Shown here: one piece after another, positions 23,152 through 64,000 of the stretch
Layout of the letters: the number at the start of each line of letters is the position of its first letter
How positions within the stretch are numbered: position 1 is the stretch's first letter
Assembly (NCBI GenBank): GCA_002337525.1
Contig: DDGG01000031.1
Location: 18,923-82,922, forward strand
DNA: 64,000 bases
Reading direction: 5' to 3'
Source of the DNA: Alphaproteobacteria bacterium UBA1908
GTDB lineage: Bacteria; Pseudomonadota; Alphaproteobacteria; Caedimonadales; UBA1908
Translations under genes and position numbers: made by a program
Notes under the pieces: model-generated
The model's input: the letters and a program-made list of their open reading frames with translations, nothing else
Told to the model about the DNA's origin: nothing
Database searches by the model: none

Positions 23152-23712
23152 TTAAACTGCCTCGTTCAAATGCGAATAGTCACGACTCTTTGATGATACC
23201 GGTAGCTCGGAAATTAAAAAGGGCCTGTTGAACTTTGTGTTCCTAAGGCCATGTTCTTTCAAAACTATTTCTTTATACGGAAACGTAATGTCGTCCTGTT
23301 TAGACTTTAGATCAAGATGCATAACTTTTTCATAAGGATACACTAAAGGCGAGTTTGTCAGTATCTGATACAAATCATTGTAAAACAATTTCCTGGCGTG
23401 ACGAACAGCCCCTTCATTCCTTTTAAGCCAGTGGTTATCACACATATTGAAAGAAATTAGACTAACCTCAATAAAATTCTCTGGCGATGAATAATGTTCA
23501 ATATAAAAATCTGAGGCAGGTGAATCTGACAAACGGTTCAAGCGACAACTACCGAAAACGCCCAGAGCAGGTTTTTCATAAGCTATATAAATGGTAGATG
23601 AAGTATCATATTGATCAACTTCCGTTTCAGAAAAATTTTTCCTGGTTTTAAAAATCCTGGCGAGTAAATCAGCCTTTTTACCCCACTGAGAAGGTTGAAT
23701 AATCGTGAACAT
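23152..23712 (-). CDS. Divergent LuxI-family (autoinducer/N-acyl synthase fold)-like protein
   Basis: 186 aa. Four collinear blocks compare with V. fischeri LuxI as I recall it: FKTRKNF vs FKQRLEW; EVDQYD vs ESDEYD; GSCRL vs GCWRL, with the same 21-residue spacing from the DxYD Asp; EVSLI vs ELSRF. Some spacers are shorter and R104 is not conserved. Needs HMM confirmation. Confidence 0.4.
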   Translation of the reverse strand: MFTIIQPSQWGKKADLLARIFKTRKNFSETEVDQYDTSSTIYIAYEKPALGVFGSCRLNRLSDSPASDFYIEHYSSPENFIEVSLISFNMCDNHWLKRNEGAVRHARKLFYNDLYQILTNSPLVYPYEKVMHLDLKSKQDDITFPYKEIVLKEHGLRNTKFNRPFLISELPVSSKSRDYSHLNEAV

Positions 23713-23775
23713 TTGAAATATCCCTGTAAAATGATGTTTTTTTATATTAATAAGCTCGTATGGAAACTAAGCATT

Positions 23776-23880
23776 CTATTCCCCACAAAAAGTTCCGTTT
23801 TGGCAATGATAGCCTGAAAATCCGGAGTAATAAAGTGCCGAACAGGCATTAAGAAAAAAGAGTGTACTGATTTTATTCAT
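23776..23880 (-). CDS. Small lipobox/Cys-containing peptide ORF (34 aa)
   Basis: My own translation: MNKISTLFFLNACSALYYSGFSGYHCQNGTFCGE. It is preceded by GGAGG with a 5-nt spacer and lies 63 nt upstream of, and co-oriented with, the LuxI-like gene. FLNAC resembles a lipobox. Below the ORF-track size cutoff. Confidence 0.3.
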   Translation of the reverse strand: MNKISTLFFLNACSALYYSGFSGYHCQNGTFCGE

Positions 23881-24044
23881 AAAAACCTCCCTGTAAAAGT
23901 AGCTTTTTAGGGACATTAAATATATAATGGCCCAGTTAATATATTAAATATAACTCATGGTATTTGATTTTTTATTTTTTGATACCATATTTGATACATA
24001 GACCGGTATTTTTTTTATGTCAACATATTTTTTCGGGTGTGCAG

Positions 24045-24479
24045 ATGTCGTCTAAGTTAACAGTAAAACTTAAAGATTTAATTGAGAAAAACGCTCTTTC
24101 TGTTCAAGGGCTTGAAAGAAAAGCAGGCCTTAAAATTCATGCTGTTCGTAACATATTGACAGGCCAGACAAAAAAACCAAGCGCTGAAACGCTTTTAGCT
24201 GTTTCTAAAGCGCTGGATTGTAGTATCAGTGACCTTCTGGATGAGGTAAGACCCAGAAATGAGAACAGAGAAACGATACAAGAAATTGTTTTCCACAAAA
24301 TTGATTTATTACAAAAAATCATTCCTGATATTATTGAGTTTCATCAACAAAATACCTTGCCATTGACAAATTGTGACTTAATGGAGGCTATTGAGCAGAT
24401 CTATACATATTCTCTTAAAAATAACAATGGAGATTATGACAGTAACTTTGCCAAATGGTTCCTTGAAAGAAAATTATAA
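24045..24479 (+). CDS. XRE-family HTH transcriptional regulator with uncharacterised C-terminal domain
   Basis: From Met28 of the track ORF: LKDLIEKNALSVQGLERKAGLKIHAVRNILTGQTKKPSAETLLAVSKALDCSISDLL is a canonical HTH_3/XRE domain. Divergent from the LuxI-like cassette. Confidence 0.75.
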   Translation: MSSKLTVKLKDLIEKNALSVQGLERKAGLKIHAVRNILTGQTKKPSAETLLAVSKALDCSISDLLDEVRPRNENRETIQEIVFHKIDLLQKIIPDIIEFHQQNTLPLTNCDLMEAIEQIYTYSLKNNNGDYDSNFAKWFLERKL

Positions 24480-50913: not shown

Positions 50914-53244
50914 ATGTCACTTGAAATTCCAAAGGGTGATTTGTACCCTATTCTTCCCTTAAGGGATATTGTTGTCTTCCCTCATATGGTTGTCCCTCTT
51001 TTTGTCGGTCGGGAAAAATCTGTGAAAGCTCTTGAGTCATTATTGAGTGATGACCAGGAAATTCTTTTAATCACCCAAAAAGACGCTTCTCTGGAAGATC
51101 CCCAACATCGGGATTTATTCACTATTGGAACACTTGCCAAGGTTCTTCAACTCCTAAAACTGCCTGATGGCACTGTTAAAGTTCTTGTTGAAGGACAGTC
51201 ACGAGCGCAGGTATTACGTTTTTCAGAGTCAAAGGATTTTTTCCAGGCCTACGCCAGTCGCCTGGACGAAGGAGAAAGCAAACCAACAGAGACAGAAGCC
51301 CTGACTCGAACAGCTACCTCCCTGTTTGAGCAATATTTGAAACTCAACAGCAAAATTCCCCCGGATATTCTAGTCTCTATTTCAAAAATCAGTGATCCCA
51401 ACAAATTGGCAGATACCCTGGCGTCACATCTGGCTTTGAAAATAGAGGACAAACAAGCTTTACTAGAGATTTCCAATATTAACAAACGCATTGAACAAGT
51501 TTGCTCTCATATGGAAGGCGAAATTTCTGTTCTCCAAACAGAAAAACGTATTCGGGGACGTGTCAAACGCCAAATGGAAAAATCTCAACGTGAGTACTAT
51601 TTGAATGAGCAAATGAAAGCGATTCAAAAAGAGTTGGGCGATTCAGAAGATGGTCAGGATGAGTTAAGCGAATTTGAAGCACGTCTATCAAAAACAAAAC
51701 TTAGTAAAGAAGCCCGGGAAAAAGCATCTTCAGAATTAAAAAAACTGCGCACCATGAATCCCATGGCATCAGAAGCGAGTGTTGTCCGCAATTACCTTGA
51801 ATGGATTCTGGATATTCCCTGGAAGAAACCCACCAAAGTCAAAAAAGATTTACTTGCAGCAGAAAAAATCCTGGATCAGGATCACTATGGTCTTAAAAAA
51901 GTCAAAGAGCGTATTCTGGAATATTTAGCGGTTCAAAATCGTGTAGGAAAGGTAAAAGGTCCTATTTTGTGTCTTGTTGGGCCGCCAGGCGTTGGAAAAA
52001 CTTCCCTTGGTCAATCTATTGCCAAGGCAACAGGACGTAAATTTGTTCGCATGGCCCTGGGTGGTGTTCGTGATGAAGCTGAAATTCGTGGACATCGCCG
52101 CACGTATATTGGATCGATGCCTGGCAAGATCATTCAAGGAATGAAAAAAGCAGATAATTCCAATCCTCTTTTCTTACTCGACGAGATTGATAAACTAGGT
52201 GCAGACTGGCGAGGAGACCCTGCTTCCGCTCTCCTTGAAGTTCTTGATCCCGAACAAAACCTGGCATTTAACGATCACTATCTTGAAGTTGATTATGACT
52301 TGTCTGATGTCATGTTTGTCACAACAGCCAATAGTCTCAACATGCCACAGCCTCTCCTCGATCGCATGGAAATTATTCGTCTTTCGGGTTATACGGAAGA
52401 TGAAAAAGTAGAGATTGCAAAGCGCCACCTTATTTCAAAACAAATGAAACTTCACGGTCTTAAGAAAGATGAATGGGCAATAACAGATGATGCTTTACGT
52501 AAGTTAATTCGCAACTATACGCGCGAAGCGGGTGTCAGAAATCTTGAACGTGAGCTTGCAAATTTACTGCGGAAAGCCACTAAAAAAATACTGACGAAAG
52601 AAGCAAAATCGATCACAATTACAGAAGAAGCTCTTGAAGAAGATGCCGGCATTATTCGTTTCCGTTTCGGCGTCTCGGAACAGGAAGATCAGATTGGGGC
52701 CACAACAGGCCTTGCCTGGACCGAAGTTGGTGGAGAGTTATTAACAATTGAATCTGTTATGCTGCCGGGTAAAGGTAAAATGAAAATTACAGGAAAACTT
52801 GGTGAAGTTATGCAAGAATCAATTCAGGCGGCAGCAAGCTATGTCCGCTCCCAAGCAAATACCTATAACATTGACCAGGAACTCTTTGACAAGAAAGATC
52901 TCCATGTCCATGTCCCTGAAGGAGCGATTCCAAAAGATGGCCCTTCAGCTGGTATTGCCATGTGTACAACGATTGTATCTGTCTTGACCGGCATTCCAGT
53001 TCGTAAAGAAGTTGCCATGACAGGCGAAGTGACTCTAAGAGGGAAAGTGCTTGCTATTGGAGGGCTGAAAGAAAAACTTCTCGCTGCACATCGAGGTGGC
53101 ATTAAAACAGTTTTAATTCCCGAAGATAACAGAAAAGATCTTTCTGATATCCCGGATAATGTCAAAGAAGGCCTTAAAATTATTCCTGTCGAAACAGTAA
53201 ATCAAGTCCTGGATCATGCCCTGACAAAACCTTTAAAAAAGTAA
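50914..53244 (+). CDS. lon: Lon protease
   Basis: 776 aa. LPLRDIVVFPHMVVPLFVGREKS N-domain, Walker A GPPGVGKTS, and protease site DGPSAGIAM. Confidence 0.95.
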   Translation: MSLEIPKGDLYPILPLRDIVVFPHMVVPLFVGREKSVKALESLLSDDQEILLITQKDASLEDPQHRDLFTIGTLAKVLQLLKLPDGTVKVLVEGQSRAQVLRFSESKDFFQAYASRLDEGESKPTETEALTRTATSLFEQYLKLNSKIPPDILVSISKISDPNKLADTLASHLALKIEDKQALLEISNINKRIEQVCSHMEGEISVLQTEKRIRGRVKRQMEKSQREYYLNEQMKAIQKELGDSEDGQDELSEFEARLSKTKLSKEAREKASSELKKLRTMNPMASEASVVRNYLEWILDIPWKKPTKVKKDLLAAEKILDQDHYGLKKVKERILEYLAVQNRVGKVKGPILCLVGPPGVGKTSLGQSIAKATGRKFVRMALGGVRDEAEIRGHRRTYIGSMPGKIIQGMKKADNSNPLFLLDEIDKLGADWRGDPASALLEVLDPEQNLAFNDHYLEVDYDLSDVMFVTTANSLNMPQPLLDRMEIIRLSGYTEDEKVEIAKRHLISKQMKLHGLKKDEWAITDDALRKLIRNYTREAGVRNLERELANLLRKATKKILTKEAKSITITEEALEEDAGIIRFRFGVSEQEDQIGATTGLAWTEVGGELLTIESVMLPGKGKMKITGKLGEVMQESIQAAASYVRSQANTYNIDQELFDKKDLHVHVPEGAIPKDGPSAGIAMCTTIVSVLTGIPVRKEVAMTGEVTLRGKVLAIGGLKEKLLAAHRGGIKTVLIPEDNRKDLSDIPDNVKEGLKIIPVETVNQVLDHALTKPLKK

Positions 53245-53257
53245 CAGATACCTCAAA

Positions 53258-53285
53258 AGAGGGTGGGGTAAAAGCCCTCTCTTTT
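53258..53285 (+). terminator. Rho-independent terminator after lon
   Basis: AGAGGG-tggggtaaaag-CCCTCT followed by CTTTT. Confidence 0.6.
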
Positions 53286-53649
53286 GGGGACATTTTCGCA
53301 AAGAAATCTGATAGAATTCGTTCAAACGATCTTTCTAAAGTATTCTTAATTTAATTTTCTCCCGACTATGGATAAGCGAGAATTTATTTCGGCAAAAAAC
53401 CTCTTTTTTGTCATCCAGAGAACGTGAAATAATTGTCAGGACCTAGAGAAAAAGTAACAGAAAAAACGTAAAAAACTTCTTTAAACATTTTTTAGTCTCT
53501 CTTAATCCCCTCTCAACCTTTTCAGGATACATTAACTTTGAACACAGAAGTGAGATAGGGAAGATACTTTCACTCTTACTCTTAAAAAGAAGAAAACAGT
53601 TCTCGAAACCATAAACGTACAACCATAAAAATAAATAGAGGAGATAAAT

Positions 53650-54159
53650 GTGCCTGAAAAATCAGGAATAGAGACTTTTGAAGTCATGTGTTTTCGTCAA
53701 AGCCGAAAGGGTTTTGATGTTCTGCTTCGTAAAGAAAATACACTTTCTTCTTACTGGCATAATTTTTTTACAGCACATAGCCTGGAACCCTTGACTGAAG
53801 AAAGTGCAACTCAAGTTTTTTCCCTCAAAACACATTTGTATGAGAAATTAAGGTTATGCGGGAACATTACGACCAGTGATATGAATCCCTGCCAGCTTTA
53901 TTTCACATTTTTAACAGATGCAAATCATGCAACTCTTGCAGCATCACCTGGTCAGATTATATGGGTTAATAGTGATGTTCTTTTAACAAAACTTGTCCAG
54001 CGCCCCTCAAAGTTCAAGCCTGAACTTTTGGAAATGCTGACAACATGTTTGAAACACTTGCACAAAGAGCCCGAAGCGATTATTTCAAAACCTTTTTTTC
54101 AACATCCTGACTTAGCCGGCTCTTCTATGCCGCAAAAAATTGATGCTGAGCATATCTAA
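53650..54159 (+). CDS. Hypothetical protein, possibly a degenerate Nudix-fold protein
   Basis: 169 aa. GTG start behind GAGGAG. VLLRKENTLSSYWHNFFTAHSLEPLTEESATQVFSLKTH loosely parallels NudB-type VLMLQRRDDPDFWQSVTGSVEEGETAPQAAMREVKEE, but the catalytic REx2EE is lost. Confidence 0.4.
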   Translation: MPEKSGIETFEVMCFRQSRKGFDVLLRKENTLSSYWHNFFTAHSLEPLTEESATQVFSLKTHLYEKLRLCGNITTSDMNPCQLYFTFLTDANHATLAASPGQIIWVNSDVLLTKLVQRPSKFKPELLEMLTTCLKHLHKEPEAIISKPFFQHPDLAGSSMPQKIDAEHI

Positions 54160-55891
54160 AATAAAGACCTTGACGTTGAAGAAGATCCTCATGTGATCCT
54201 TCTTCAATAAGACGTCCTTGATCCAGAACAATAATATGATCTGCCTTTTGAACAGTTGAAAGTCGGTGTGCAATGACAAGAGTTGTTTTGCCGCACATTA
54301 ATGTCTCAAGAGCTTTTTGAATATGAGATTCACTTTCTGCATCCAAAGCATTTGTCGCTTCATCCAGCAACAGGATAGGCGCTTCTTTAAGAAATGCTCT
54401 GGCAATTGCAAGGCGTTGTTTTTGACCTCCTGAAAGACGCACACCTCTTTCACCGACACGTGTTTCCAGGGCCTTGGGTAACCCCTCAATGAAAGACGTC
54501 AAAGCTGCCTGATTAATAACTTTTTGTAAGGTAAGTTCAGAAACTTTCTTTTCTTGTGGGGCTCCAAATAAAATATTTTCTTTTAACGTTGCATTAAAGA
54601 TGACCGGTTCCTGGGGAACAACAGAGAAAAAATGCCTCAAATCTTTAAGAGACAGTTGGTCCACAGGGGTTTTCCCAATCAAAAGGTCACCTGATTGGGG
54701 ATCATAAAAACGTAATAGAAGATTAAACAGGGTTGTTTTTCCTGCTCCTGAGGGGCCAACAATCGCTACAGTCTTCCCTGCACCAACGGTCAATGAAAAA
54801 TCTTTTAAAATAGGAGTATTACTATGTGTTGGATAGGCAAAAGTCACCTGACGAAAAGTAACAGCCGTTTGAGAAAGCTTTCGAGGCTTTACAGGGTACG
54901 GAGGATCGATCAAGGTTGGCTTTGTCTCAATAACTTCGATAAGTCGATCCAAAGCACCAGCGGCTGTTTGTAAATCTCCAAAAAGGTCTGATAACGAATT
55001 AAAAGAGCCTGCAACAATAAGGGCAAAAAATAAGAAAGCTGATAGGTCACCAGGACTTAACGAGCCAGAGAGGACTTCTCTTCCTCCAAGCCACATAACA
55101 AGACTCACCGCAGAAAAAGCCAAAAAAATCACCATACCAACAAGCAAAGCTCTTAAATGAACCCGCTTTTTAACATGAATCATTTTTGACTCCATTAAGT
55201 GACAGAAACGGCCCATAATTTCCCGCTCTTTAACAAAAATTTTAATGGTCTGCAAAGCCTGTAAATAATCTAGTGTCGAAGCTTCAACAACCCCTTGTGA
55301 TGCCTGAACTGTTTTTGTAAGTTCCCGAACACGACGGCCAAGAGCCCCAATAGGTGACAAAACAAAAGGAATCACCAAAAGGACAACAGCGGTTAATTTG
55401 GGGCTGGTAATAATTAACATGATTCCTGCGCCAAGTAATTGAATCATTGAACGAACCGTTGTTGCGAGAGACGATGTCATAACATTCAGCAAAACCAGCG
55501 TGTCCGAATTAAGACGTGCCCCAAGATCTCCGGTACGCGCAGTGTCATAGTAAGATTGATCTAATGTAATTAAGTGGGAGAAAACTTTTTTTCTCAAGTC
55601 ATTAATAACTCTTTCAGCAAGCCACGAAGTCGTTCTGACACGAAAATACGCTGCTAAAGAAAGCATAACACTGGCAGATAACAGAAAAATAAACCCTGAG
55701 CGCAATAACTCGGGATCACGCCCTGAAAATCCCTGATCAACCAAATAGCGCACCCCAAAGCCAAGGGATAAAACTGTGCAGGCAGCAAGTGTTAAGAACA
55801 AAAAAGCTTTCAGAATGTCCCTTTTATAAGGAGCCAGAAAATGCCGGATATGCGGCACCAACCGTTTTATAGTTGCCTTTTTCTTTACCAT
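54125..55891 (-). CDS. ABC exporter, fused permease/ATPase (MsbA/ABCB-like)
   Basis: 588 aa. 6-TM domain, Walker A GPSGAGKTT, signature LSGGQKQRLAIARA, Walker B ILLLDEATNALD. Confidence 0.85.
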   Translation of the reverse strand: MVKKKATIKRLVPHIRHFLAPYKRDILKAFLFLTLAACTVLSLGFGVRYLVDQGFSGRDPELLRSGFIFLLSASVMLSLAAYFRVRTTSWLAERVINDLRKKVFSHLITLDQSYYDTARTGDLGARLNSDTLVLLNVMTSSLATTVRSMIQLLGAGIMLIITSPKLTAVVLLVIPFVLSPIGALGRRVRELTKTVQASQGVVEASTLDYLQALQTIKIFVKEREIMGRFCHLMESKMIHVKKRVHLRALLVGMVIFLAFSAVSLVMWLGGREVLSGSLSPGDLSAFLFFALIVAGSFNSLSDLFGDLQTAAGALDRLIEVIETKPTLIDPPYPVKPRKLSQTAVTFRQVTFAYPTHSNTPILKDFSLTVGAGKTVAIVGPSGAGKTTLFNLLLRFYDPQSGDLLIGKTPVDQLSLKDLRHFFSVVPQEPVIFNATLKENILFGAPQEKKVSELTLQKVINQAALTSFIEGLPKALETRVGERGVRLSGGQKQRLAIARAFLKEAPILLLDEATNALDAESESHIQKALETLMCGKTTLVIAHRLSTVQKADHIIVLDQGRLIEEGSHEDLLQRQGLYFRYAQHQFFAA

Positions 55892-55913
55892 ACTCTCAAC
55901 TCAAAAACTTTGA

Positions 55914-56549
55914 TCATGATTTCATCGCATCAAGATAAGGTTTTATAAGAGTTTCTATCTCGTCAAGTTCAGGTGCATAATCGATTACACGGCCATTGAT
56001 TATAAAAGTTGGTGTACCATCAATATTCATTTCTTTTTCAGCCCTAAGGCGTGTCATCAGAACCCGATCGGACAAAGCTTTATTATTGACTGTTTCCTGG
56101 CACGTCTCAAGTGTTTCACCCGTGATATGCGCCAGGGCATCAAGGCAATGACTGCCTATCCATCGGTCCTGCGTTTCAAAAAGCCTGTTAACCAGGGAAA
56201 ACTGCCGAAGAGGTATTGAGGCCGCAACAAGAGTAGAAGCTTTCAATGCGTACTCATCAATTGGGAAGTGCCTGAAAACAAGCTGCATTTTACCGGTACG
56301 AATATACTTCTTCATCAAAACAGGCAGAACTGTTTTATGGAAATGGGCACAATGATGGCATGTCAAGGAAGAGTATTCGATGATTTTAATGGGTGCCTCA
56401 CTGCTGCCTATTCGAATATCAGGAATATTCTCAGGTTCAGATTTTTTGTGAGCATCCTGCGACACGACTTGGATATCCTTGCCTACTTTTTCAGCAGAAA
56501 AGAGAGACAAGGGGGAAAAAAGAGCGGAAATAAAAAATATTTTTAGCAT
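55914..56549 (-). CDS. DsbA-family thiol:disulfide oxidoreductase
   Basis: 211 aa. Signal peptide, thioredoxin-fold active site CHHC (SSLTCHHCAHF), and a C-terminal GTPTFIING motif. Confidence 0.8.
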   Translation of the reverse strand: MLKIFFISALFSPLSLFSAEKVGKDIQVVSQDAHKKSEPENIPDIRIGSSEAPIKIIEYSSLTCHHCAHFHKTVLPVLMKKYIRTGKMQLVFRHFPIDEYALKASTLVAASIPLRQFSLVNRLFETQDRWIGSHCLDALAHITGETLETCQETVNNKALSDRVLMTRLRAEKEMNIDGTPTFIINGRVIDYAPELDEIETLIKPYLDAMKS

Positions 56550-56706
56550 TGTCTTTTTCTATACAATAATGTCGACTATAGTGTTATTTATATAATGAAG
56601 TATCACAGAAAGCGATCATAAAATTTCAAAATTTAATTTTGTTAATTTTCTAGTGACCTTTTTTAAGCTATAGTCAATTGATTAAAAATTAGGTGATCCT
56701 TAAATC

Positions 56707-57510
56707 ATGATATTAACTTTTGCACGTACTATGGTGGCTTTTTTTCTGGTCACAAGCCTTATAGTCACCAACACAGCAGAAGCATCTTATGCGGCTTCTC
56801 TTGAAAAAATGTCAAACACCGAGTCTCCTCAAAACGAGGAAAGTGAGAGTCAGGACGACGACCCTCTTGAGAGCTTTAACAGATTTATGTTTGCATTTAA
56901 TGAACTTTTTGATGGCGTTATTTTAAGGCCTCTTGCCCTTGTTTATGATACCATTACACCCGAGCCAGTTCAGGATATCGTTGGGAACTTTCTTGATAAC
57001 TTGCTAGAGCCCGTCACCTTTATGAATGATCTTCTACAACTTAAGCCTGAAGCTGCAGGGCAAACATTAGCACGCTTTGCCATGAACTCAACGTTGGGTG
57101 TTGGAGGGCTTTTTGACGTGGCTGATGAATGGGCCGATATCAAACGTCATAAGGAAGACTTTGGGCAAACGATGGGAGCCGCTGGTGTTGGGAGTGGTCC
57201 TTATCTTGTTCTTCCTTTCATTGGCCCCTCGAGCTTTCGCGACATGATTGGAAAAGCCGTTGATGTTATTACAGACCCTGTTGATTATGCCCTGCGTCGT
57301 TCTGACCGTGATACACTTATTTATGTCCGGAAAGGTGTCGATGCTGTTCATCGTCGTGCAAAAGCCTTGCCTTTAACAGATAGCATTGATAAAACAGCTA
57401 CAGATAAATACATTCGCATCAGGACACTTTATACTCAACACCGCCACTTTAAAGTTAAAGATGGCAATGTGCCTGTATCCGAAGAAGACTCAGTTGAAAT
57501 GGTAGAATAA
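56707..57510 (+). CDS. mlaA: MlaA/VacJ family outer-membrane lipid-asymmetry protein
   Basis: DPLESFNRFMFAFNELFD..ILRPLALVY...NFLDNLLEPVTFMNDLLQ...RFAMNSTLGVGGLFDVA are VacJ family motifs. Confidence 0.85.
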   Translation: MILTFARTMVAFFLVTSLIVTNTAEASYAASLEKMSNTESPQNEESESQDDDPLESFNRFMFAFNELFDGVILRPLALVYDTITPEPVQDIVGNFLDNLLEPVTFMNDLLQLKPEAAGQTLARFAMNSTLGVGGLFDVADEWADIKRHKEDFGQTMGAAGVGSGPYLVLPFIGPSSFRDMIGKAVDVITDPVDYALRRSDRDTLIYVRKGVDAVHRRAKALPLTDSIDKTATDKYIRIRTLYTQHRHFKVKDGNVPVSEEDSVEMVE

Positions 57511-58113
57511 ATGAAAAAAAACTTTTTTCTTTTTTTTATTTCGTTATGTTTAATCACATCTGAAAGTCATGCAGACTTGTCAGAATATAAAGCTTTTGCA
57601 GAGCAAACAGGAAATGAAATTATACAAGTTCTCGTGGATACAAGCTCCTCAATGCAAAATCGCAAGAAAAAGTTTAGGGCGATTCTTGAAAAACGCTTTA
57701 GCTTGCCTTCTATTGCAAAATTTGTTCTAGCACGCTATTGGCGTCGAACAAATGATCAGCAAAAAGCGCGCTATCTGGATCTTTTTGAAGACGCGACGGT
57801 GACCAACTACGCAGCTCAATTTGATAATTATAATAATGAACGCCTGGAAGTTCTTTCGGCTCGTCCCGGTAAAAAAGGCAATGTTATTATCACAACACGT
57901 ATCTTGCGTCCCTCCAAAGGGGAGCCTCTTAGTGTCGACTGGCACGCTGCAAAATCAAAATCGGGAAAAATCAAGGTTGTTGACCTCATTATCAATGGTG
58001 TCAGTATGAGTATAACACAGCGCAGTGAATATGGGGCCATGGTTCAATCGGCAAATGGCAATATTGATCAATTTCTGGATAACCTTGAAGCCCAGGTCAG
58101 ATCAGATCCCTAG
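57511..58113 (+). CDS. mlaC: MlaC/Ttg2D-like periplasmic lipid-binding protein
   Basis: 200 aa. Signal peptide. FSLPSIAKFVLARYWRRTNDQQKARYLDLFEDATVTNYAAQF fits the Tol-tolerance Ttg2D/MlaC pattern. Abuts mlaA. Confidence 0.7.
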   Translation: MKKNFFLFFISLCLITSESHADLSEYKAFAEQTGNEIIQVLVDTSSSMQNRKKKFRAILEKRFSLPSIAKFVLARYWRRTNDQQKARYLDLFEDATVTNYAAQFDNYNNERLEVLSARPGKKGNVIITTRILRPSKGEPLSVDWHAAKSKSGKIKVVDLIINGVSMSITQRSEYGAMVQSANGNIDQFLDNLEAQVRSDP

Positions 58114-58205
58114 AGAAAAATGTTTCTTTTCAGAAGACGCAAAAATCTTATCGGATGCGAAAAATTATAACCAACTCATCTATTGCAAAAAATTCCGATC
58201 CTGGA

Positions 58206-59039
58206 TTACTCTTTTGAAATAAGTTGTTCAAAGTCATTTATGAATTTTTCTGGATTCTTATTATAAATATCTTCAATATTTTTTTTCTCGAACAACTGCT
58301 CCACTGCACTTTTATTATAAACACTCCACTTGAAGAATTTTTGTGCATGTTCAGAAGTCATAATACCTAATAATGTCGCAAGTTTAGAAGGTACCTGGAA
58401 ATGATGCCAATCAATAGGGTGATTCCAATGCCCCCCCCAAATGGTGAAACCATTCTTGTGAAATATATCAATAACTTTTTCCGCCAATCCTTTTAAACCA
58501 TCCTTTTGAGCTCTAATGCGGTTTATATACAAAAGAGCACTTCCTGAAGGTTTGGTATAACGAATACCTTTTTTCTTACTTTCTTCATCTTCAAAATAGT
58601 GAAAAGGGTTTTGCACAGGATTAATATCAATTGCACATCCATATGCATGAATTGATACTCCTTGTTTGCTGCCATACTTAAATCTTGGATTAAAAGATGA
58701 AGTATTATTATCTTCCATTGATTTGTCGTCATTACCATCATAAAGATCCATGGGTAGAGCTTGATGTATAGGAAATTTTAAATTATATAGTTCGTCAAAT
58801 ATCTTTTTTACAAATAATGACACCGCATCTAGAACAACGATCTTTCCCTCTTTTATATTTCCTTCAAAATCATAATGTTTAAAAGAAATAATTTTTAACC
58901 TAGATACAGGAACAGGACTCCTCTCATTAATTATCTTTTTAAATTTCCTGGATAAAGGACTATAAGACTTTATTGAAGCACAAGTGTCGTGCGGACAAAA
59001 AAATAGAATTAAAAAAAACACACATATTTTTATATTCAT
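58206..59039 (-). CDS. Secreted M15-family zinc peptidoglycan peptidase (VanY/endolysin-like)
   Basis: 277 aa. Signal peptide MNIKICVFFLILFF. Zinc-ligand motifs SIHAYGCAIDIN (H..D) and WGGHWNHPIDWHHFQ. Very AT-rich. Starts 6 nt after the stop of STAND paralog B. Confidence 0.8.
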   Translation of the reverse strand: MNIKICVFFLILFFCPHDTCASIKSYSPLSRKFKKIINERSPVPVSRLKIISFKHYDFEGNIKEGKIVVLDAVSLFVKKIFDELYNLKFPIHQALPMDLYDGNDDKSMEDNNTSSFNPRFKYGSKQGVSIHAYGCAIDINPVQNPFHYFEDEESKKKGIRYTKPSGSALLYINRIRAQKDGLKGLAEKVIDIFHKNGFTIWGGHWNHPIDWHHFQVPSKLATLLGIMTSEHAQKFFKWSVYNKSAVEQLFEKKNIEDIYNKNPEKFINDFEQLISKE

Positions 59040-59045
59040 AATAAA

Positions 59046-62000
59046 TTACTCTTGTCTAAATTTAAGGGCATTATTAATTCTAATGAAATGTGAAGAATAG
59101 TTTGGTAATTTATTTTTTATAATTGCCATAGATTTCTGAAGATAATCTACAGACTTTTCTTTATATGATTCTGACAAGAGCTGATCGCCCTTTTTAAGTG
59201 AGTCTTTATAAAAACCCCAGTAAAGATTACTTAAATTTTCTAAAGCCAGGTACTCATTTAAATGTGAGATTTTTGAAAATGCTTGTAGAGACTTATTGAG
59301 ATAATAATTTGATAAACCATAGTGATGATCTAAAAGAAAACTTCTACCGAGCTCCAGAAAGACTTCTGCTGTTCTTAAGTGATTTTCACCGTATTCATTA
59401 ATAAAACTTTCCAAAACGTTTATTAATAAATTTTGCGCATGTTTATATTCACCTAAATCTATATGAAGTCTAGCTATATTTATTAAAACCCATTTAGTTC
59501 TAATATGTTCTTCCTCATGGTATTTTTTGTATATCTCAAAAGCGTTATTCAAAATGTTTTTAGAGTTTTTATAATCTTTTAGTTCCCTTAATGTATCTCC
59601 CAGAAGTACATTGGTCCAACCTATAAGTATATTATTTTGATCGTACTTACTTTTATAAATTGAAAGTCCCTCTTTTAAAACTTCTTTGGCTTTTGTAAAA
59701 CATCCCATTTCTCTGTATGCATTGCCTAAATAAATCAATACCCAACCAGTTTCAGTGTGTAATGGTCCATAGTGCTTTTTATATTTAGTTAGACCTTTAT
59801 ATAACAAGTTGATTGATTTATTGTAATCACCTAATTCTCTGCTTATATTACCCAAATAAACATACATCAAAGATACCTTTAAGTGATCTTCGCCATAATA
59901 CTCCTTAAAAATTTGCAAGCATTCTTCAAATATAGATTCTGCAAGTGCATATTGTCCCTGGGTTCTATATGTATTTGCTAAATGACGTTTAACATCCGCT
60001 ACTTTGATATGGTCTTTTCCATAGTAATTTTCATATATACGGATACTTTTTTTTAATTGTGTTTCTGCTTTACTGTACTGGCCTAGCTCTCTTTGAATAT
60101 TAGAAAAACTTATTAATGCCCAAGCTATTTTTTGGGGATTTTGTTTATAATGCTTTTTATAAATCTCAATGTTTTCCTGAATTAAATTTATTGCCTCTTC
60201 ATAATTTCCTGCTTCTCTTTGAATATTAGCAAGATGAATAGATTGCTCGGCAACGCTAAAATGATTTTTTCCATATTTTTTTATCTTAAACTGAATACTC
60301 TTATTAATAAGGTCCGTTGCTTTATTAGTGTACCCAAGATAATCATAAATAAGACCTAATCTCCCCATAATAGAATCTCTAATAGACTCATCTAGATAAT
60401 CTGTATTGTCCAAAAAGTGCTGTGTATGAATTTCCAAAAGGCTTACTCTTTGTGTATCTTTGTTCTCTAATGCTTCATTTATATCCTTAATAAGCGTATC
60501 AGAAATTATTTCCAGTAAAGAAATCCTGTCTTTTTTGCTCAAAAATTCAGTAACACAAAAAGGAATTATTTTATGAGAGCTTCTATGCACAGAAAATGCA
60601 GATGTTTTATTATTTATAACAAGAGATTCATCAGTAATCAAAGAGTATCTTTTTAAATAGTGAACAAAGTCATCAACAGAAATACTGTTTTTGTATTTCT
60701 TAAGCAAATCTTTTGGAATATTTTGAGAATCCAGTAGACTTATAAAAAAAAGAAGATCCCTGAAATCAGTATTTTCACGAACTAGGTTTCTAAGAGGTAA
60801 GGCTATAATATCATAACGAGTTTTTGAATACTGGCTTACCTCTTTTAATACATTTTTCTGCATTACAGAGAAAGCTTCAATTTGCTTGGACAGAAGATGA
60901 AGATATTGTTTGTAAGATATATTGCCATCTTTGATATAATATGCTGCAGTTGATGTATCAAGAGGATAATGTGGAATATGTTTAAGAAATTGCTTTATGT
61001 CTTTCTTTGATTTATTGTTTTTTTGTCCAATAATTTTTGTAAATAATTTAAATTTATCTTCTGAAGATAGTTCCCCCGGATTTATTACTTGATCAGCTCC
61101 TATGTAACTATTATTCATGATGTTGCTGTCGCGGGTTGTTATAATAATTTTTCCCTTTCCCCAACTTGTACTATCATAGGGGAAAAAATTTTGGATGTCA
61201 GAGAAAGTTTCTACATTATCATAAATTAAAATCCATCCTGGATTACCTTTAAGTCTTTGCTTAATAAAAAGAAGAAGTCTTTTTTCCCTAATATCTGATT
61301 CCTTAATTTCCTTTATTAATCTTAATTCTCTTTTATCTTCTTCTCTAAAAGTTAGGCTATAAGCCAGGATTTCAAAAGACCTTATAAGGCTCACGTGTGT
61401 TTCTGCGTTTATTTCCCAAATAACATTTGCTTTTTGCAAGCGCCCATAATGTCTGGCTAAGGTTGTTTTCCCGGAACCTCCTACTCCCGCCAGAACCACA
61501 GTTTGAATACCCGAATTATTTTTAAGTTTCTTATCAAGATCTTCCAACAGTTTTTTACGCTTTAATAAAACTGATTTATGTGGCAAGGGTAATTCAGATG
61601 ATATGCTTCTAACACTTAAGAAAGTGGGAGACATCTTTAGGTAAAGAAGACCAAGTGATGAAATAAGAAGTACGACAACCCCTAATATGATGAGCCTGGT
61701 ACTTCTTGCTTTCATGTTTTCTTTATATTTATGAGAAAAAGTTCTTGCCTGGGATACCCTGTGATCATCCTCTAAAAGTGTTGACTCATTACCTTTTAAA
61801 TGCTTGTAATAACGTCTTATCTCATCACTTTTTCCAGATTTCTCGACAAATTCTATGATATTGCTCCGCCCGCCAGAACCTAGTTTTTGGGCAATCAAAT
61901 CAAGATGACTTTCCACTGTGCTTGGCGCAATAGAAAGACGACGTCCAATTTCCTTGATAGTCCATCCACTTGCAACGCAAGAAATTACATCAATCTGTCG

Positions 62001-62072
62001 ACGCGTAAACTTGATACCACAAATCGTTTGTAAATATTTTGTATAGAGATCTTCCGAAGGCTTATTTTTCAT
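59046..62072 (-). CDS. LuxR/GerE HTH - single TM - NB-ARC/STAND NTPase - TPR protein (paralog B)
   Basis: 1008 aa. HTH GIKFTRRQIDVISCVASGWTIKEIGRRLSIAPSTVESHLDLIAQKLG. Hydrophobic LIILGVVVLLISSLGLLYL (aa 127-145) follows KARSTR. Walker A GVGGSGKT (aa 196-203), ILIYDNVE, IIITTRD. Long array of about 42-aa TPRs, e.g. YGKDHIKVADVKRHLANTYRTQGQYALAESIFEECLQIFKEY. Confidence 0.75.
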   Translation of the reverse strand: MKNKPSEDLYTKYLQTICGIKFTRRQIDVISCVASGWTIKEIGRRLSIAPSTVESHLDLIAQKLGSGGRSNIIEFVEKSGKSDEIRRYYKHLKGNESTLLEDDHRVSQARTFSHKYKENMKARSTRLIILGVVVLLISSLGLLYLKMSPTFLSVRSISSELPLPHKSVLLKRKKLLEDLDKKLKNNSGIQTVVLAGVGGSGKTTLARHYGRLQKANVIWEINAETHVSLIRSFEILAYSLTFREEDKRELRLIKEIKESDIREKRLLLFIKQRLKGNPGWILIYDNVETFSDIQNFFPYDSTSWGKGKIIITTRDSNIMNNSYIGADQVINPGELSSEDKFKLFTKIIGQKNNKSKKDIKQFLKHIPHYPLDTSTAAYYIKDGNISYKQYLHLLSKQIEAFSVMQKNVLKEVSQYSKTRYDIIALPLRNLVRENTDFRDLLFFISLLDSQNIPKDLLKKYKNSISVDDFVHYLKRYSLITDESLVINNKTSAFSVHRSSHKIIPFCVTEFLSKKDRISLLEIISDTLIKDINEALENKDTQRVSLLEIHTQHFLDNTDYLDESIRDSIMGRLGLIYDYLGYTNKATDLINKSIQFKIKKYGKNHFSVAEQSIHLANIQREAGNYEEAINLIQENIEIYKKHYKQNPQKIAWALISFSNIQRELGQYSKAETQLKKSIRIYENYYGKDHIKVADVKRHLANTYRTQGQYALAESIFEECLQIFKEYYGEDHLKVSLMYVYLGNISRELGDYNKSINLLYKGLTKYKKHYGPLHTETGWVLIYLGNAYREMGCFTKAKEVLKEGLSIYKSKYDQNNILIGWTNVLLGDTLRELKDYKNSKNILNNAFEIYKKYHEEEHIRTKWVLINIARLHIDLGEYKHAQNLLINVLESFINEYGENHLRTAEVFLELGRSFLLDHHYGLSNYYLNKSLQAFSKISHLNEYLALENLSNLYWGFYKDSLKKGDQLLSESYKEKSVDYLQKSMAIIKNKLPNYSSHFIRINNALKFRQE

Positions 62073-62463
62073 TTGATATATTGAATCTCTTGCTATTCTA
62101 TTAACTTCCCCACAGTTTTAATAATACAATTTTCTTATGTTTTTTTCCTTTTTAGCACATTTCTTATGATGTTACCCGTGATTTCTTCCAGGTCATTTAC
62201 CAGAAGGCAATATGAGTAATATCGATTTTCTATTCTTCTCTCCTGGTATAAGTACTTCGCACATTACAATAAACCAACACATACAGGGTAAAATCTAGTA
62301 AAATTAAAGAGATAACAACATGGCAGGGATAGTCATAGGCTTATAAGGATCGCTCAACAGAGAGCGGCCTTAGTTAGATAACAGAGATTAGAGCTATGAG
62401 TCGCGATGAACGAGGAAGACCCGAACATTGAAGTACAGGAATGGGTTTTAACAGTATGAGTTC

Positions 62464-63477
62464 TTAAAAATGGCCTTTTTGGACAAGAGTTTCCGCAATT
62501 TGGACAGCGTTCAGAGCAGCGCCTTTACGAAGATTATCAGCAACAGCCCAAAAAGTGAGGCCATGAGAAACACTGGTATCCTGTCGGAGCCTGCTAATAA
62601 ACACTTCATCTGATCCTGCACATTCAAGAGGTGTCACATAAAGATCGTCCCTAGGACGGTCTTGAAGAGAAAGACTCTCACTTTGTTCAAAAGCCTCTCG
62701 CGCATCCTCAACAGAGATTTTTTTCTGAAACTCGACGCAAACAGACATTCCATGACCAATAAGAACAGGAACACGAACACAAGTAATTGCAACTTTCAAC
62801 TCTGGAGATAAAACCTTCTTTAATTCAAAAATGATTTTTTCTTCCTCACCAGAATACCCGCTTGCCATAGCATTATCGATATGGGGAATAACATTGTAAG
62901 CAATCTGCTTGCTAAAAACATTGCTGACAACCCCGTCATTAACAAAGATAGCCCGTGTTTGTCGGTATAGCTCATCCATGGCCTGACGTCCTGCCCCGGA
63001 AACAGATTGATAGGTTGACACAACAACGCGCTTTAACGGAGCAATCAAAGACAGAGGCTTTAAAGCCATCGCCAGAGGAATCACAATACAGTTAGGACTC
63101 GCCACAATCTTATTTCCACCTTTCACCAGGTCCCGATTAATTTCTGGCACACAAAGAGGCACAGCGGGATCAAGACGAAAAGCTGACGATTTATCAATCA
63201 CTGTTGCTCCCGACTTAACAATTCGGGGAATATACTTTTCTGCTAAAGAGGTTTCCGCACAGAAAAATACCAGATCGGTACCCTGAAAATTATAGTCAGA
63301 TAAAGCTTGAATAATGAGATCTTGATCACCATAGGATACATTGCTCCCGACAGAACGATCTGACGCTAATGCGGTCACAGTTCCAGAAGGAAAATTTCTT
63401 TCTTCTAAAATTGTCAGAACTTCCCGGCCAACCGTCCCTGTTGCTCCTACAACCGCAATGGATAATGTCATGCTCAT
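62464..63477 (-). CDS. asd: Aspartate-semialdehyde dehydrogenase
   Basis: 337 aa. VVGATGTVGRE NAD(P) motif, active-site SPNC, and SVSGAG. Confidence 0.9.
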   Translation of the reverse strand: MSMTLSIAVVGATGTVGREVLTILEERNFPSGTVTALASDRSVGSNVSYGDQDLIIQALSDYNFQGTDLVFFCAETSLAEKYIPRIVKSGATVIDKSSAFRLDPAVPLCVPEINRDLVKGGNKIVASPNCIVIPLAMALKPLSLIAPLKRVVVSTYQSVSGAGRQAMDELYRQTRAIFVNDGVVSNVFSKQIAYNVIPHIDNAMASGYSGEEEKIIFELKKVLSPELKVAITCVRVPVLIGHGMSVCVEFQKKISVEDAREAFEQSESLSLQDRPRDDLYVTPLECAGSDEVFISRLRQDTSVSHGLTFWAVADNLRKGAALNAVQIAETLVQKGHF

Positions 63478-63503
63478 TCCTTCTCGAGAGTTTTTTTTAC
63501 AAA

Positions 63504-64000
63504 CTAGGCTGCCAACGCTAACGATGGTGCAAGGAAGGGTTTCCCCAAATCTCTTGCCGCCGCTTCATTTGTAATGTGTCCATTGCAAACAGTTAGGCCA
63601 TCCAACAAATGCAAGTTCTGGAGCAAAGCCTTTTCTCCCCCCAAATTAGCAAGCTGAAGAATAAAAGGAAGTGTTGCATGGTTAAGAGCCAGTGTCGATG
63701 TCCGTGCAACGGCACCAGGAATATTGGCAACGCAGTAGTGAATTACTCCATCAACTAAATAAGTCGGATCGTTATGGGTTGTAGGCTTGCTTGTCTCAAA
63801 ACAGCCCCCCTGATCTATCGCAACGTCAACAACTACAGATCCTGGACGCATTTTCGAGATCATATCCCTGGTAATAAGTTTGGGCGCGGAAGCTCCCGGT
63901 AATAAAATAGCACCAATAACAAGATCTGCATTACTGACAAGACGTTCTATATTATCAATCGTTGAATATACTGTGTGAATACGAGCCCCGAAAAGATGGT
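63504..64000 (-). CDS. ald: Alanine dehydrogenase, C-terminal part (5' end beyond the window)
   Basis: VVDVAIDQGGCFETSKPTTHNDPTYLVDGVIHYCVANIPGAVARTSTLAL matches Ald. The frame stays open upstream of the track ORF to nt 64000 (..LVIGAILLPGASAPKLITRDMISKM). Confidence 0.85.
   Translation of the reverse strand, partial: HLFGARIHTVYSTIDNIERLVSNADLVIGAILLPGASAPKLITRDMISKMRPGSVVVDVAIDQGGCFETSKPTTHNDPTYLVDGVIHYCVANIPGAVARTSTLALNHATLPFILQLANLGGEKALLQNLHLLDGLTVCNGHITNEAAARDLGKPFLAPSLALAA

What the first reader, a model, noticed from the sequence alone, without database searches (positions are those of the whole stretch)
58206..62072. Candidate two-gene module: STAND sensor plus secreted M15 peptidoglycan peptidase in an AT-rich patch
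Seen in sequence: the paralog B stop (59046-59048) and the ATG of a signal-peptide-bearing M15 zinc peptidase (59039) are separated by 6 nt on the same strand, so co-transcription is likely. The whole stretch is much AT-richer than its flanks. Spot counts on single 60-nt lines give 14 G+C at 59041-59100 versus 27 G+C at 62521-62580 in asd. Established knowledge: M15 enzymes (VanY, phage L-alanyl-D-glutamate endolysins) cut peptidoglycan stem peptides, and STAND NTPases are recurrent sensors in prokaryotic immunity and programmed-death systems. Inference: this could be a horizontally acquired sensor-plus-cell-wall-hydrolase module, either for defence or autolysis control, or a regulator of envelope remodelling. 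The pairing is not one I recognise as described.
Basis: partly seen in the sequence, partly recalled or inferred. Interest (0 to 1): 0.65.

Follow-up and report, generated by a model that had tools for sequence, protein, structure and literature searches.

The report
Regulator and cell-wall peptidase, chance neighbours
Two real, probably co-transcribed genes (a LuxR-type NB-ARC/TPR regulator and a probably exported M15 cell-wall peptidase) sit in an AT-rich patch, but they are not neighbours in almost any other genome, so this is a local juxtaposition of ordinary parts, not a new two-gene system.

Summary
On the minus strand a 1008-aa ORF (59046-62072) ends 6 nt before a 277-aa ORF (58206-59039). 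The patch has 31% G+C, the lowest in the window.

The large protein has a LuxR/GerE HTH, one hydrophobic helix, an NB-ARC ATPase and TPR repeats. It is one of at least two, probably three, paralogs in this genome. The family is common in Holosporales/Rickettsiales-like bacteria. Its output domain binds DNA, so it reads as a STAND transcription regulator (AfsR/MalT logic), not an Avs-type immune sensor. PADLOC gives no real hit.

The small protein is a Peptidase_M15_4 enzyme with its zinc and catalytic residues conserved. It belongs to a widespread stand-alone family (at least 558 genome loci).

- Of 81 M15 loci, one has a distant STAND neighbour, and it is convergent.
- None of 12 other close STAND-family loci with readable flanks has an M15 gene.
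- M15 neighbours are unrelated across taxa.
- All three paralogs are AT-rich.

Best reading: a lineage-specific, probably co-transcribed juxtaposition. A local regulator-target link stays possible. The family-wide membrane helix before the ATPase is unexplained.

The parts
59046..62072 (-). STAND-B: 1008-aa protein with LuxR HTH, one hydrophobic helix, NB-ARC ATPase and TPR repeats
   Evidence: ORF. Pfam GerE, NB-ARC and TPR_12 above their cut-offs. 38% identical to paralog A at 14928-17720.
61851..62009 (-). LuxR/GerE-type helix-turn-helix DNA-binding domain (aa 22-74)
   Evidence: Pfam GerE E 2e-10. The family profile matches the GerE, NarL and FixJ DNA-binding domains in PDB, E 1.5e-9 to 1e-7. 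pLDDT is 84-91 across the core of the domain.
61635..61700 (-). Hydrophobic, transmembrane-like helix (aa ~125-146, RLIILGVVVLLISSLGLLYL)
   Evidence: A segment with Kyte-Doolittle mean >=1.6 over 19 aa lies upstream of the P-loop in 80 of 85 family members. AF2 models it as an isolated helix, residues 120-147, between low-confidence linkers. Membrane insertion and topology are inferred.
60975..61556 (-). NB-ARC (AP-ATPase) nucleotide switch (aa 173-366): P-loop GVGGSGKTT, Walker B LIYDN, TTR motif
   Evidence: Pfam NB-ARC 50 bits against a cut-off of 23.5. Invariant G196, G199, G201, K202, T203, T204, D285, N286, T312, T313 in alignment A2. Foldseek best matches are ZAR1, Sr35, NRC, CED-4 and Apaf-1, E 3e-9 to 1e-6.
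59358..60425 (-). TPR repeat array (aa ~550-905), the presumed sensor or interaction domain
   Evidence: Pfam TPR_12 E 1.9e-62 with 7 stretches, TPR_10 and TPR_MalT.
59040..59045 (-). 6-nt spacer (tttatt) between the STAND-B stop and the M15 start
   Evidence: Sequence read directly. No terminator-like site here.
58206..59039 (-). 277-aa Peptidase_M15_4 (LAS-type zinc peptidase), probably exported
   Evidence: ORF. Pfam PF13539 E 3.7e-17. 39-49% identical over 84-97% of its length to many ~250-300 aa homologues.
58977..59039 (-). Signal-peptide-like N-terminus (aa 1-21, MNIKICVFFLILFFCPHDTCA)
   Evidence: Read from the sequence; no predictor was run. 50 of 114 homologues have a comparable hydrophobic N-terminus.
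58392..58673 (-). Catalytic core (aa 123-216): S129-x-H131-x6-D138 and D210-x-x-H213
   Evidence: All of these residues are invariant in the 22-sequence alignment A1. The same motifs align with Ply500 (SNHNYGVAVD ... DYPHFE) in the profile search of PDB, E 5.8e-5.
62073..62463 (-). 391-nt intergenic region upstream of STAND-B, the presumed promoter region of the two-gene unit
   Evidence: Sequence. No Rfam hit. No above-chance promoter or terminator matches in the scanned region. Its role is inferred.

Best explanation
The locus is a lineage-specific, probably co-transcribed juxtaposition of two unrelated ordinary genes. It is not a dedicated two-gene system.

Gene 1 (STAND-B) belongs to a multi-copy family of LuxR-HTH / membrane-helix / NB-ARC / TPR proteins found in Holosporales- and Rickettsiales-like bacteria. 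By architecture it is a signal-switched transcription factor. The inferred mechanism is that the TPR array receives a cue, the NB-ARC module switches nucleotide state and oligomerises, and the clustered LuxR HTH domains bind DNA.

Gene 2 is a stand-alone M15_4 zinc peptidase that is probably exported by Sec. It most likely trims peptidoglycan stem peptides in the periplasm. Its nearest solved relatives are L-alanyl-D-glutamate endopeptidases.

The M15 gene lies 6 nt downstream with no terminator, so it is probably read from the regulator's promoter. That linkage exists only in this organism.

Shown here: the domains, the conserved active-site residues, the junction, the composition and the lack of conserved adjacency. 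Inferred: co-transcription, export, substrate and the regulator's mechanism.
For: - Domains and motifs.
- Multi-copy family: paralog A is in the window beside an MFS transporter. P0122 is probably a third paralog; like the window's two proteins it is recorded on 3 contigs, the longest of 268,709 bp. It sits beside putA. L085 carries three large same-strand ORFs in tandem, each with a GKT motif, and the middle one is the confirmed family match.
- Other family members sit beside NRPS, patatin, IS elements, UDG, an aquaporin and Mob genes, and never beside M15.
- Among 81 M15 loci from very diverse bacteria, one has a distant STAND gene, in convergent orientation.
- M15 neighbours are not conserved, and PGAP names the family only generically.
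- No defence-system model matches.
- The flanks are housekeeping genes: mlaA, mlaC, asd, ald, lon, clpXP.
- The closest available relatives (asd 70% and 67% identical) keep ald-asd, or asd alone, but have neither gene downstream.
- The same arrangement, with an identical M15 protein, recurs on at least 6 contigs; two samples are on record for the contig shown. It is therefore stable within this population.
Against: - A 6-nt spacing with no terminator is typical of a true operon, and regulators often sit next to their targets, so a real local regulatory link cannot be excluded.
- The two genes share an almost identical, extreme composition (GC3 0.242 and 0.237). This fits joint acquisition.
- A second, independent STAND/M15 adjacency exists (L064). 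It is convergent, and by my rough estimate is about what chance predicts in genomes with many STAND copies.
- Only 12 other close STAND-family loci had readable flanks. The metagenome scan returned just 6 loci because its patterns were generic P-loop motifs.
Confidence: 0.55

Rival explanations
1. The genes form a genuine local regulator-target pair. STAND-B senses an envelope or host-derived cue and activates its own promoter, so the co-transcribed M15 peptidase is made on demand to remodel peptidoglycan. The pairing would be a recent invention of this lineage.
For: The genes share a strand with a 6-nt gap and no terminator. STAND-B has a DNA-binding output domain. The two genes have matching extreme composition. 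A second, convergent adjacency exists in L064. STAND-B sits apart from paralogs A and C in the NJ tree, so it could have its own function.
Against: The pairing is not conserved. The other paralogs and homologues have unrelated neighbours. No binding site was identified; the only motif shared upstream of paralogs A and B (16 of 19 nt) is about what I estimate chance gives in AT-rich DNA.
Confidence: 0.27
2. The pair is an anti-phage or programmed-death module. The STAND protein detects infection and unleashes the M15 hydrolase to lyse the cell (abortive infection).
For: STAND NTPases with TPR sensors are used in prokaryotic immunity (Avs and bacterial NLR-like systems; established knowledge). 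M15 enzymes include phage endolysins. There is a weak endolysin PHROG hit, E 2e-4, and the profile matches the Ply500 and LysB4 endolysins. The patch is AT-rich.
Against: PADLOC gives only marginal HTH, P-loop and TPR hits, with no Avs or NLR model. The N-terminal domain is a LuxR HTH, not a killing effector. The peptidase has its own export signal and belongs to a stand-alone family present in at least 558 genomes with no STAND partner. The neighbourhood is housekeeping, not a defence island. The adjacency is not conserved.
Confidence: 0.04
3. STAND-B is a ToxR-like membrane-anchored regulator with its HTH in the cytoplasm and its NB-ARC-TPR part outside the inner membrane. That outer part would sense peptidoglycan fragments produced by the co-exported M15 peptidase.
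For: A single hydrophobic helix is conserved in 80 of 85 family members, about 51 aa before the P-loop. It has more K+R upstream (3.8) than downstream (2.1), which by the positive-inside rule favours a cytoplasmic N-terminus. AF2 models an isolated long helix between flexible linkers. The peptidase appears to be exported too.
Against: To my knowledge no ATP-dependent STAND module is known outside the cytoplasm. Exporting about 860 residues is costly. The charge bias is modest. The pairing with M15 is not conserved, although the helix is, so the helix cannot be explained by M15.
Confidence: 0.06
4. The AT-rich patch is a decaying or fast-evolving accessory region and one or both genes are no longer functional.
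For: These are the lowest-GC genes in the window. The pair is absent from the nearest relatives at this position.
Against: Both ORFs are full length relative to homologues (94-99% coverage). All catalytic and nucleotide-binding motifs are intact. The M15 protein is identical on at least 6 contigs.
Confidence: 0.05

Closest known systems
AfsR (Streptomyces) and other STAND-type transcription regulators (MalT, LAL/large ATP-binding LuxR regulators, GutR)
   Same: These also fuse a DNA-binding domain to a STAND NTPase and a TPR-like sensor. AfsR likewise has its DNA-binding domain at the N-terminus, followed by NB-ARC and TPR (architecture from established knowledge and bioRxiv 10.64898/2026.09.02.748808). 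STAND-B gives partial NCBIfam hits to AfsR (E 1e-14, TPR part) and MalT (E 6e-9, HTH part).
   Different: The HTH here is LuxR/GerE type at the N-terminus, whereas AfsR uses SARP and MalT/LAL carry LuxR at the C-terminus. A conserved hydrophobic helix separates the HTH from the ATPase. Walker B is D-N. Scores are far below the equivalog cut-offs (53 against 1430; 35 against 537). The family belongs to intracellular-type Alphaproteobacteria, not Actinobacteria or Enterobacteria.
Avs (antiviral STAND) and bacterial NLR-related defence proteins
   Same: A STAND NTPase core with a C-terminal TPR-type repeat sensor.
   Different: There is no cell-killing effector domain, because the N-terminus is an HTH. 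No PADLOC model matches beyond generic segments. The gene is not in a defence island. Its NTPase is of the NB-ARC type (Pfam NB-ARC; best structural matches Apaf-1, CED-4 and plant NLRs).
Ply500, LysB4, EndoT5 and ChiX: M15 L-alanyl-D-glutamate endopeptidases with solved structures (2vo9, 6akv, 8q2g, 5opz)
   Same: They share the zinc-binding and catalytic motifs S-x-H-x6-D and D-x-x-H, and the 'GF..WGG.W' segment. The profile hit to 2vo9 has E 5.8e-5.
   Different: Only about 50 residues align. The window protein has an extra conserved N-terminal part and a C-terminal helical extension. Its AF2 model (pLDDT 86.5) finds no significant Foldseek match in PDB. It is a chromosomal stand-alone gene with a signal peptide, not a phage lysis-cassette gene. 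Its bond specificity is unknown.
VanY / LdcB / DacB-type M15B carboxypeptidases and VanX (M15D)
   Same: The same LAS metallopeptidase clan, acting on D-amino-acid-containing peptidoglycan peptides.
   Different: Only Pfam M15_4 matched. No hit to the VanY, VanX or other M15 models was listed at E <= 0.01.
ToxR/CadC-type membrane-anchored one-component regulators
   Same: An N-terminal DNA-binding domain followed by a single membrane helix. The charge bias favours the same N-in topology.
   Different: Their outer domains are small periplasmic sensors. Here the C-terminal part is an ATPase plus TPR array of about 860 aa, and its location was not determined.

Membership tests
Peptidase M15_4 (LAS zinc peptidases, Pfam PF13539) | Match to the family HMM above the curated cut-off | tested here: met
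   63.1 bits against a cut-off of 25, E 3.7e-17, profile positions 2-70 of 70.
Peptidase M15_4 (LAS zinc peptidases, Pfam PF13539) | Zinc ligands H-x6-D plus a distal H, with a catalytic acid three residues before it | tested here: met
   H131, D138, D210 and H213 are invariant in 22 homologues and align with the Ply500 motifs.
Peptidase M15_4 (LAS zinc peptidases, Pfam PF13539) | LAS fold shared with solved M15 enzymes | tested here: inconclusive
   The AF2 model has pLDDT 86.5. Foldseek finds no PDB match at E <= 0.001. The top three BFVD hits are phage 'D-alanyl-D-alanine carboxypeptidases' at E 2-3e-3 with TM 0.3-0.5.
Peptidase M15_4 (LAS zinc peptidases, Pfam PF13539) | Hydrolysis of a peptidoglycan stem-peptide bond | not testable with these tools
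   Needs enzyme assays on muropeptides.
STAND NTPase, NB-ARC (AP-ATPase) clade | NB-ARC HMM above cut-off; P-loop, Walker B and TTR (sensor) motifs | tested here: met
   50 bits against a cut-off of 23.5. GxxGxGKTT, hhhhD(N) and TTR are conserved in A2. The second Walker B acid is replaced by Asn across the alignment.
STAND NTPase, NB-ARC (AP-ATPase) clade | Fold like Apaf-1, CED-4 and plant NLR nucleotide-binding domains | tested here: met
   Foldseek best matches are ZAR1, Sr35, NRC, CED-4 and Apaf-1, E 3e-9 to 2e-6, probability 1.00.
STAND-type transcription regulators (AfsR / MalT / LAL kind) | DNA-binding HTH fused to a STAND NTPase and repeat sensor in one polypeptide | tested here: met
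   GerE HTH 22-74, NB-ARC 173-366 and TPR ~550-905. The HTH profile matches the GerE, NarL and FixJ structures.
STAND-type transcription regulators (AfsR / MalT / LAL kind) | Orthology to AfsR or MalT (NCBIfam equivalog score) | tested here: not met
   AfsR 53 bits against 1430; MalT 34.6 against 537. STAND-B works like them by architecture but is not a member of either family.
STAND-type transcription regulators (AfsR / MalT / LAL kind) | Sequence-specific DNA binding and ATP-dependent activation | not testable with these tools
   Needs EMSA or ChIP and nucleotide-binding assays.
Avs / bacterial NLR-like anti-phage systems | Match to curated defence-system models | tested here: not met
   PADLOC best hits have E 6e-4 to 2e-3 and lie on HTH, P-loop or TPR segments only.
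Avs / bacterial NLR-like anti-phage systems | Cell-killing effector domain fused to or partnered with the STAND protein in a conserved way | tested here: not met
   The N-terminal domain is a LuxR HTH. The M15 partner is absent from 12 other close family loci and from 80 of 81 M15 loci.
Avs / bacterial NLR-like anti-phage systems | Protection against phage | not testable with these tools
   Needs phage challenge in a laboratory host.
   1 of 81 M15 loci (L064, convergent, with the two ORFs' 3' ends overlapping 80 nt). 0 of 12 other STAND loci.
   A 6-nt gap and no terminator-like site are consistent with it. RT-PCR or RNA-seq is needed.

The most novel reading that the evidence does not exclude
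The LuxR-HTH / single membrane helix / NB-ARC / TPR family could be a new class of membrane-anchored STAND regulators. Its ATPase-TPR part would lie outside the inner membrane, where in an intracellular bacterium host-derived nucleotides might be available. At this locus it would sense muropeptides released by the co-transcribed, co-exported M15 peptidase, making a periplasmic NLR-like cell-wall surveillance circuit.
Probability: 0.05. Interest if true: 0.8.

Novelty: new member of a known kind. Interest (0 to 1): 0.25.

Why it matters
As posed, the finding matters little. The STAND-M15 pairing is not a recurrent system, so it should not be counted as a candidate defence or autolysis module.

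Two things remain worth keeping:

1. An uncharacterised, multi-copy family of LuxR-HTH / membrane-helix / NB-ARC / TPR proteins occurs in Holosporales- and Rickettsiales-like bacteria. Members often sit next to large unannotated, patatin or NRPS genes. This suggests NLR-like transcription switches that control accessory or host-interaction genes. The conserved membrane helix in front of an ATPase is a real topological puzzle.

2. A widespread stand-alone M15_4 peptidase family (at least 558 genomes) has no solved structure detectable by fold search and no assigned bond specificity.

Tried and rejected
- Defence system: the PADLOC scan of both proteins and paralog A gave only marginal segment hits. 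Rejected.
- Prophage or lysis cassette: PHROGs gave one weak endolysin hit, E 2e-4. The annotated neighbours are housekeeping genes, and there is no tRNA in the window. Rejected.
- Mobile-element borders: the repeat search over 57400-63000 found only short AT-rich chance repeats. There is no Rfam hit in 56000-64000. Promoter- and terminator-like sites are no more frequent than in shuffles.
- Clean insertion test by synteny: the nearest relatives (asd 70% and 67% identical) lack the pair, but they also lack mlaA/mlaC downstream of asd. An empty site could not be shown.
- Metagenome scan for STAND loci: the patterns chosen were generic P-loop motifs and only 6 loci were confirmed. I used exact-protein look-ups instead.
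- Fold assignment of the peptidase: there were no significant PDB fold matches despite a confident model, so the family call rests on Pfam, motifs and a profile hit to Ply500.
- Shared operator upstream of paralogs A and B: one 19-nt stretch is 16/19 identical. From the AT-rich composition I estimate about 0.6 such matches by chance, so I do not claim it.
- P0123, the closest non-self homologue: its contig ends at the gene, so the downstream neighbour is unknown.
- Literature: full-text searches found nothing that describes this family or pairing. The Bodo saltans Paracaedibacter-like symbiont paper (PMC8163844) reports a genome of similar G+C (40.6%) but does not mention these genes.

Full report
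**What is there**

The minus strand carries a 1008-aa ORF (59046-62072) and a 277-aa ORF (58206-59039). Read on the minus strand, the junction is gag-TAA-tttatt-ATG.

Pfam places these domains on the large protein:
- a GerE/LuxR helix-turn-helix at residues 22-74;
- an NB-ARC ATPase at 173-366;
- seven TPR_12 stretches from about 550 to 900.

The small protein has a Peptidase_M15_4 domain at 123-216 (E 3.7e-17). Its N-terminus (MNIKICVFFLILFFCPHDTCA|S) looks like a Sec signal peptide. I read this from the sequence and ran no predictor.

**Composition**

| Gene | GC | GC3 |
|---|---|---|
| STAND-B | 0.312 | 0.242 |
| M15 | 0.309 | 0.237 |
| Paralog A | 0.371 | 0.323 |
| Mean of 46 window ORFs | 0.417 (sd 0.038) | 0.347 (sd 0.039) |

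Low G+C is not peculiar to this pair, however. Paralog A is also below average. A probable third paralog (P0122) has GC 0.333 and GC3 0.273 inside a locus of 0.417.

**Where the sequence comes from**

Locus L099, from an ENA metagenome assembly, is 100% identical to window 52206-64000. The exact M15 protein occurs on at least 6 contigs with the same neighbours.

P0122 was first taken as the best 'homologue' of STAND-B. Like the window's two proteins, it is recorded on 3 contigs, the longest of 268,709 bp. It is therefore very probably a third paralog in the same genome; this is an inference. The named relatives of the STAND protein are Holosporales and Rickettsiales:
- Paracaedimonas acanthamoebae, including a plasmid copy;
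- Finniella inopinata;
- a Megaera polyxenophila plasmid;
- Paracaedibacteraceae, Holosporaceae and Rickettsiaceae MAGs.

**The large protein**

The family alignment (A2) shows these conserved features:
- an HTH;
- a variable linker;
- a hydrophobic segment;
- an R-S-D-x-x-x-P motif;
- the P-loop G-x-G-G-x-G-K-T-T-L-A-R;
- a Walker B of the form hhhhD-N;
- a T-T-R motif;
- a P-x-x-P-L-D motif.

The profile matches the GerE, NarL and FixJ DNA-binding domains and plant NLR NB-ARC domains in PDB. An AF2 model of the N-terminal 469 residues has mean pLDDT 74.7, and roughly 85-92 across most of the NB-ARC part. It models a compact HTH, a disordered linker, one isolated long helix (120-147) and an NB-ARC fold. 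The best structural matches are ZAR1, Sr35, NRC, CED-4 and Apaf-1.

The protein is therefore a STAND NTPase of the NB-ARC type (Pfam NB-ARC; best fold matches Apaf-1, CED-4 and plant NLRs) whose output domain binds DNA. The closest known logic is AfsR (DNA-binding domain, NB-ARC, TPR) and MalT/LAL regulators. NCBIfam gives only partial, far sub-threshold hits to these, so it works like them without being a member. PADLOC models give nothing beyond marginal HTH, P-loop and TPR segments.

**The small protein**

It belongs to a large, well-conserved family of 250-300-aa proteins. The word-indexed search gave 501 hits. At least 558 confirmed loci appear in one-genome-per-species contigs. Among them are Francisellaceae, Burkholderia, Photobacterium, Moritella, Vibrio, Xenorhabdus, Herbaspirillum, Bradyrhizobium, Rickettsiales, Cyclobacteriaceae and Melainabacteria.

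H131, D138, D210 and H213 are invariant. They align with the zinc and catalytic motifs of the Listeria phage endolysin Ply500. Weaker profile hits go to LysB4, an L-Ala-D-Glu endopeptidase (8q2g) and ChiX.

A confident AF2 model (pLDDT 86.5) has no significant Foldseek match in PDB. In BFVD it gives only weak matches to phage M15 proteins. The family call therefore rests on sequence evidence, and the bond cleaved is unknown. About half of the homologues have a hydrophobic N-terminus (50 of 114), so not all may be exported.

**Is the pairing conserved?**

No.

- *M15 loci.* In 81 M15-homologue loci with up to 10 kb on each side, tblastn with the STAND N-terminal and NB-ARC parts finds one neighbour, in L064, an uncultured alphaproteobacterium. 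That protein is a 1026-aa LuxR / helix / NB-ARC / TPR protein only 23-30% identical to STAND-B. It lies on the opposite strand, converging on the M15 gene, with the two ORFs' 3' ends overlapping 80 nt.
- *STAND loci.* None of the other close STAND-family loci with readable flanks has an M15 gene. Paralog A is followed by an MFS transporter. P0122 lies beside putA and a small GerE gene. The loci of P0148, P0140, P0147, P0167, P0143 and P0131 hold NRPS, IS elements, UDG, an aquaporin, Mob genes and a porin. L085-L088 also lack M15. The two more distant loci, L089 and L090, lack it too.
- *Chance estimate.* By my rough estimate STAND genes make up 1-3% of genes in such genomes. There are two in this 64-kb window, and L085 carries three large same-strand P-loop ORFs in tandem. 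On that basis one chance adjacency among the alphaproteobacterial M15 loci is about what is expected.
- *M15 neighbours.* Clustering the two ORFs on each side of M15 gives no family present in more than 7 of 81 loci, and all the loci printed for the three 7-locus clusters are Vibrio. In annotated replicons the gene is a monocistronic 'M15 family metallopeptidase' in unrelated contexts.

**Is it an acquired island?**

Possibly, but this is not shown.

- The flanks are housekeeping genes: mlaE, clpP, clpX, lon, an ABC exporter and a DsbA-like gene, then mlaA and mlaC on one side and asd and ald on the other.
- The nearest relatives available (asd 70% and 67% identical) keep ald-asd, or asd alone, and have neither gene downstream. 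They also lack mlaA/mlaC there, so no empty site can be demonstrated.
- There are no tRNA genes, flanking repeats or Rfam hits.
- In a neighbour-joining tree of the NB-ARC region, paralogs A and P0122 are sisters and B sits apart, nearest to P0124. This fits an old duplication or a transfer.

**Mechanism I commit to**

STAND-B is a nucleotide-switched LuxR-type transcription factor tethered by one hydrophobic helix. The M15 gene is probably read from the same promoter, because only 6 nt and no terminator separate them. The peptidase is probably exported and trims peptidoglycan stem peptides.

The linkage is local to this organism and is not a dedicated system (confidence 0.55). A real local regulator-target relation is the main rival (0.27). 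Defence or abortive infection is unlikely (0.04).

**What stays unexplained**

The hydrophobic helix lies about 51 residues before the P-loop in 80 of 85 family members. It carries more positive charge on its N-terminal side (3.8 against 2.1 K+R in 15 residues). Taken at face value, this puts the HTH in the cytoplasm and the ATPase-TPR part outside the inner membrane, which would be unprecedented for a STAND module. I could not resolve this. It is a property of the family and is independent of M15.

**Verdict**

Both genes are new members of known kinds. Interest is low for the pairing and moderate for the STAND family's membrane helix.

Noticed in passing
window 14928-17720 (-) and 13273-14796 (-): Paralog A of the STAND protein (930 aa, 38% identical, same LuxR / helix / NB-ARC / TPR layout) is followed 131 nt downstream by an MFS transporter. 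A branched-chain amino-acid ABC permease and ATPase pair lies divergently upstream (18234-19888). It is also AT-richer than its flanks (GC 0.371).
   Followed up: partly
window 61635-61700 (-); family alignment A2: A single hydrophobic helix between the HTH and the NB-ARC domain is conserved in 80 of 85 family members. Its positive-inside bias would place the ATPase-TPR part outside the cytoplasm. Walker B is D-N (D285, N286 invariant) instead of D-D/E.
   Followed up: partly
L064 94-1017 (+) and 938-4018 (-): This is the only other STAND/M15 adjacency found. In an uncultured alphaproteobacterium MAG the two genes converge and the two ORFs' 3' ends overlap 80 nt. The STAND protein has an extra ~150-aa insert between the HTH and the helix.
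   Followed up: partly
L085 2750-13163 (+): Three large same-strand ORFs (1061, 1201 and 1159 aa), each containing a GKT motif, lie in tandem with gaps of 17 and 125 nt. The middle one is the confirmed STAND-family match, so the family may form arrays in some genomes.
   Followed up: no
L091, L093, L095, L103, L104, L105 (upstream of the STAND gene in each): STAND homologues often have a large gene divergently upstream. These are an NRPS (1220 aa), a patatin (508 aa), or proteins of 441-1135 aa (with a 2605-aa one beyond) that have no Pfam domain. They may be the regulated targets.
   Followed up: no
window 62143-62161 (-) and 17771-17789 (-): A 19-nt stretch (ATGTGCTAAAAAGGAAAAA / ATATGCTAATAAGGAAAGA, 16/19 identical) lies 52-89 nt upstream of the start codons of paralogs B and A. 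I estimate this is about what chance gives in AT-rich DNA.
   Followed up: partly
window 23003-24479: This is the second most AT-rich stretch of the window (0.365 over 3.9 kb). It contains a 171-aa Cro/C1-type HTH protein (23964-24479, GC 0.328, GC3 0.285) and may be another accessory islet.
   Followed up: no
window 53650-54159 (+): A 169-aa ORF without any Pfam match converges on the ABC exporter gene (54125-55891, -) and overlaps it by 35 nt. It is also called as a gene in the public assembly (L099).
   Followed up: no
L002 7458-7823 (-): A stand-alone 121-aa GerE/LuxR protein sits divergently upstream of the probable third paralog (P0122), beside sodB, recA, alaS and putA.
   Followed up: no
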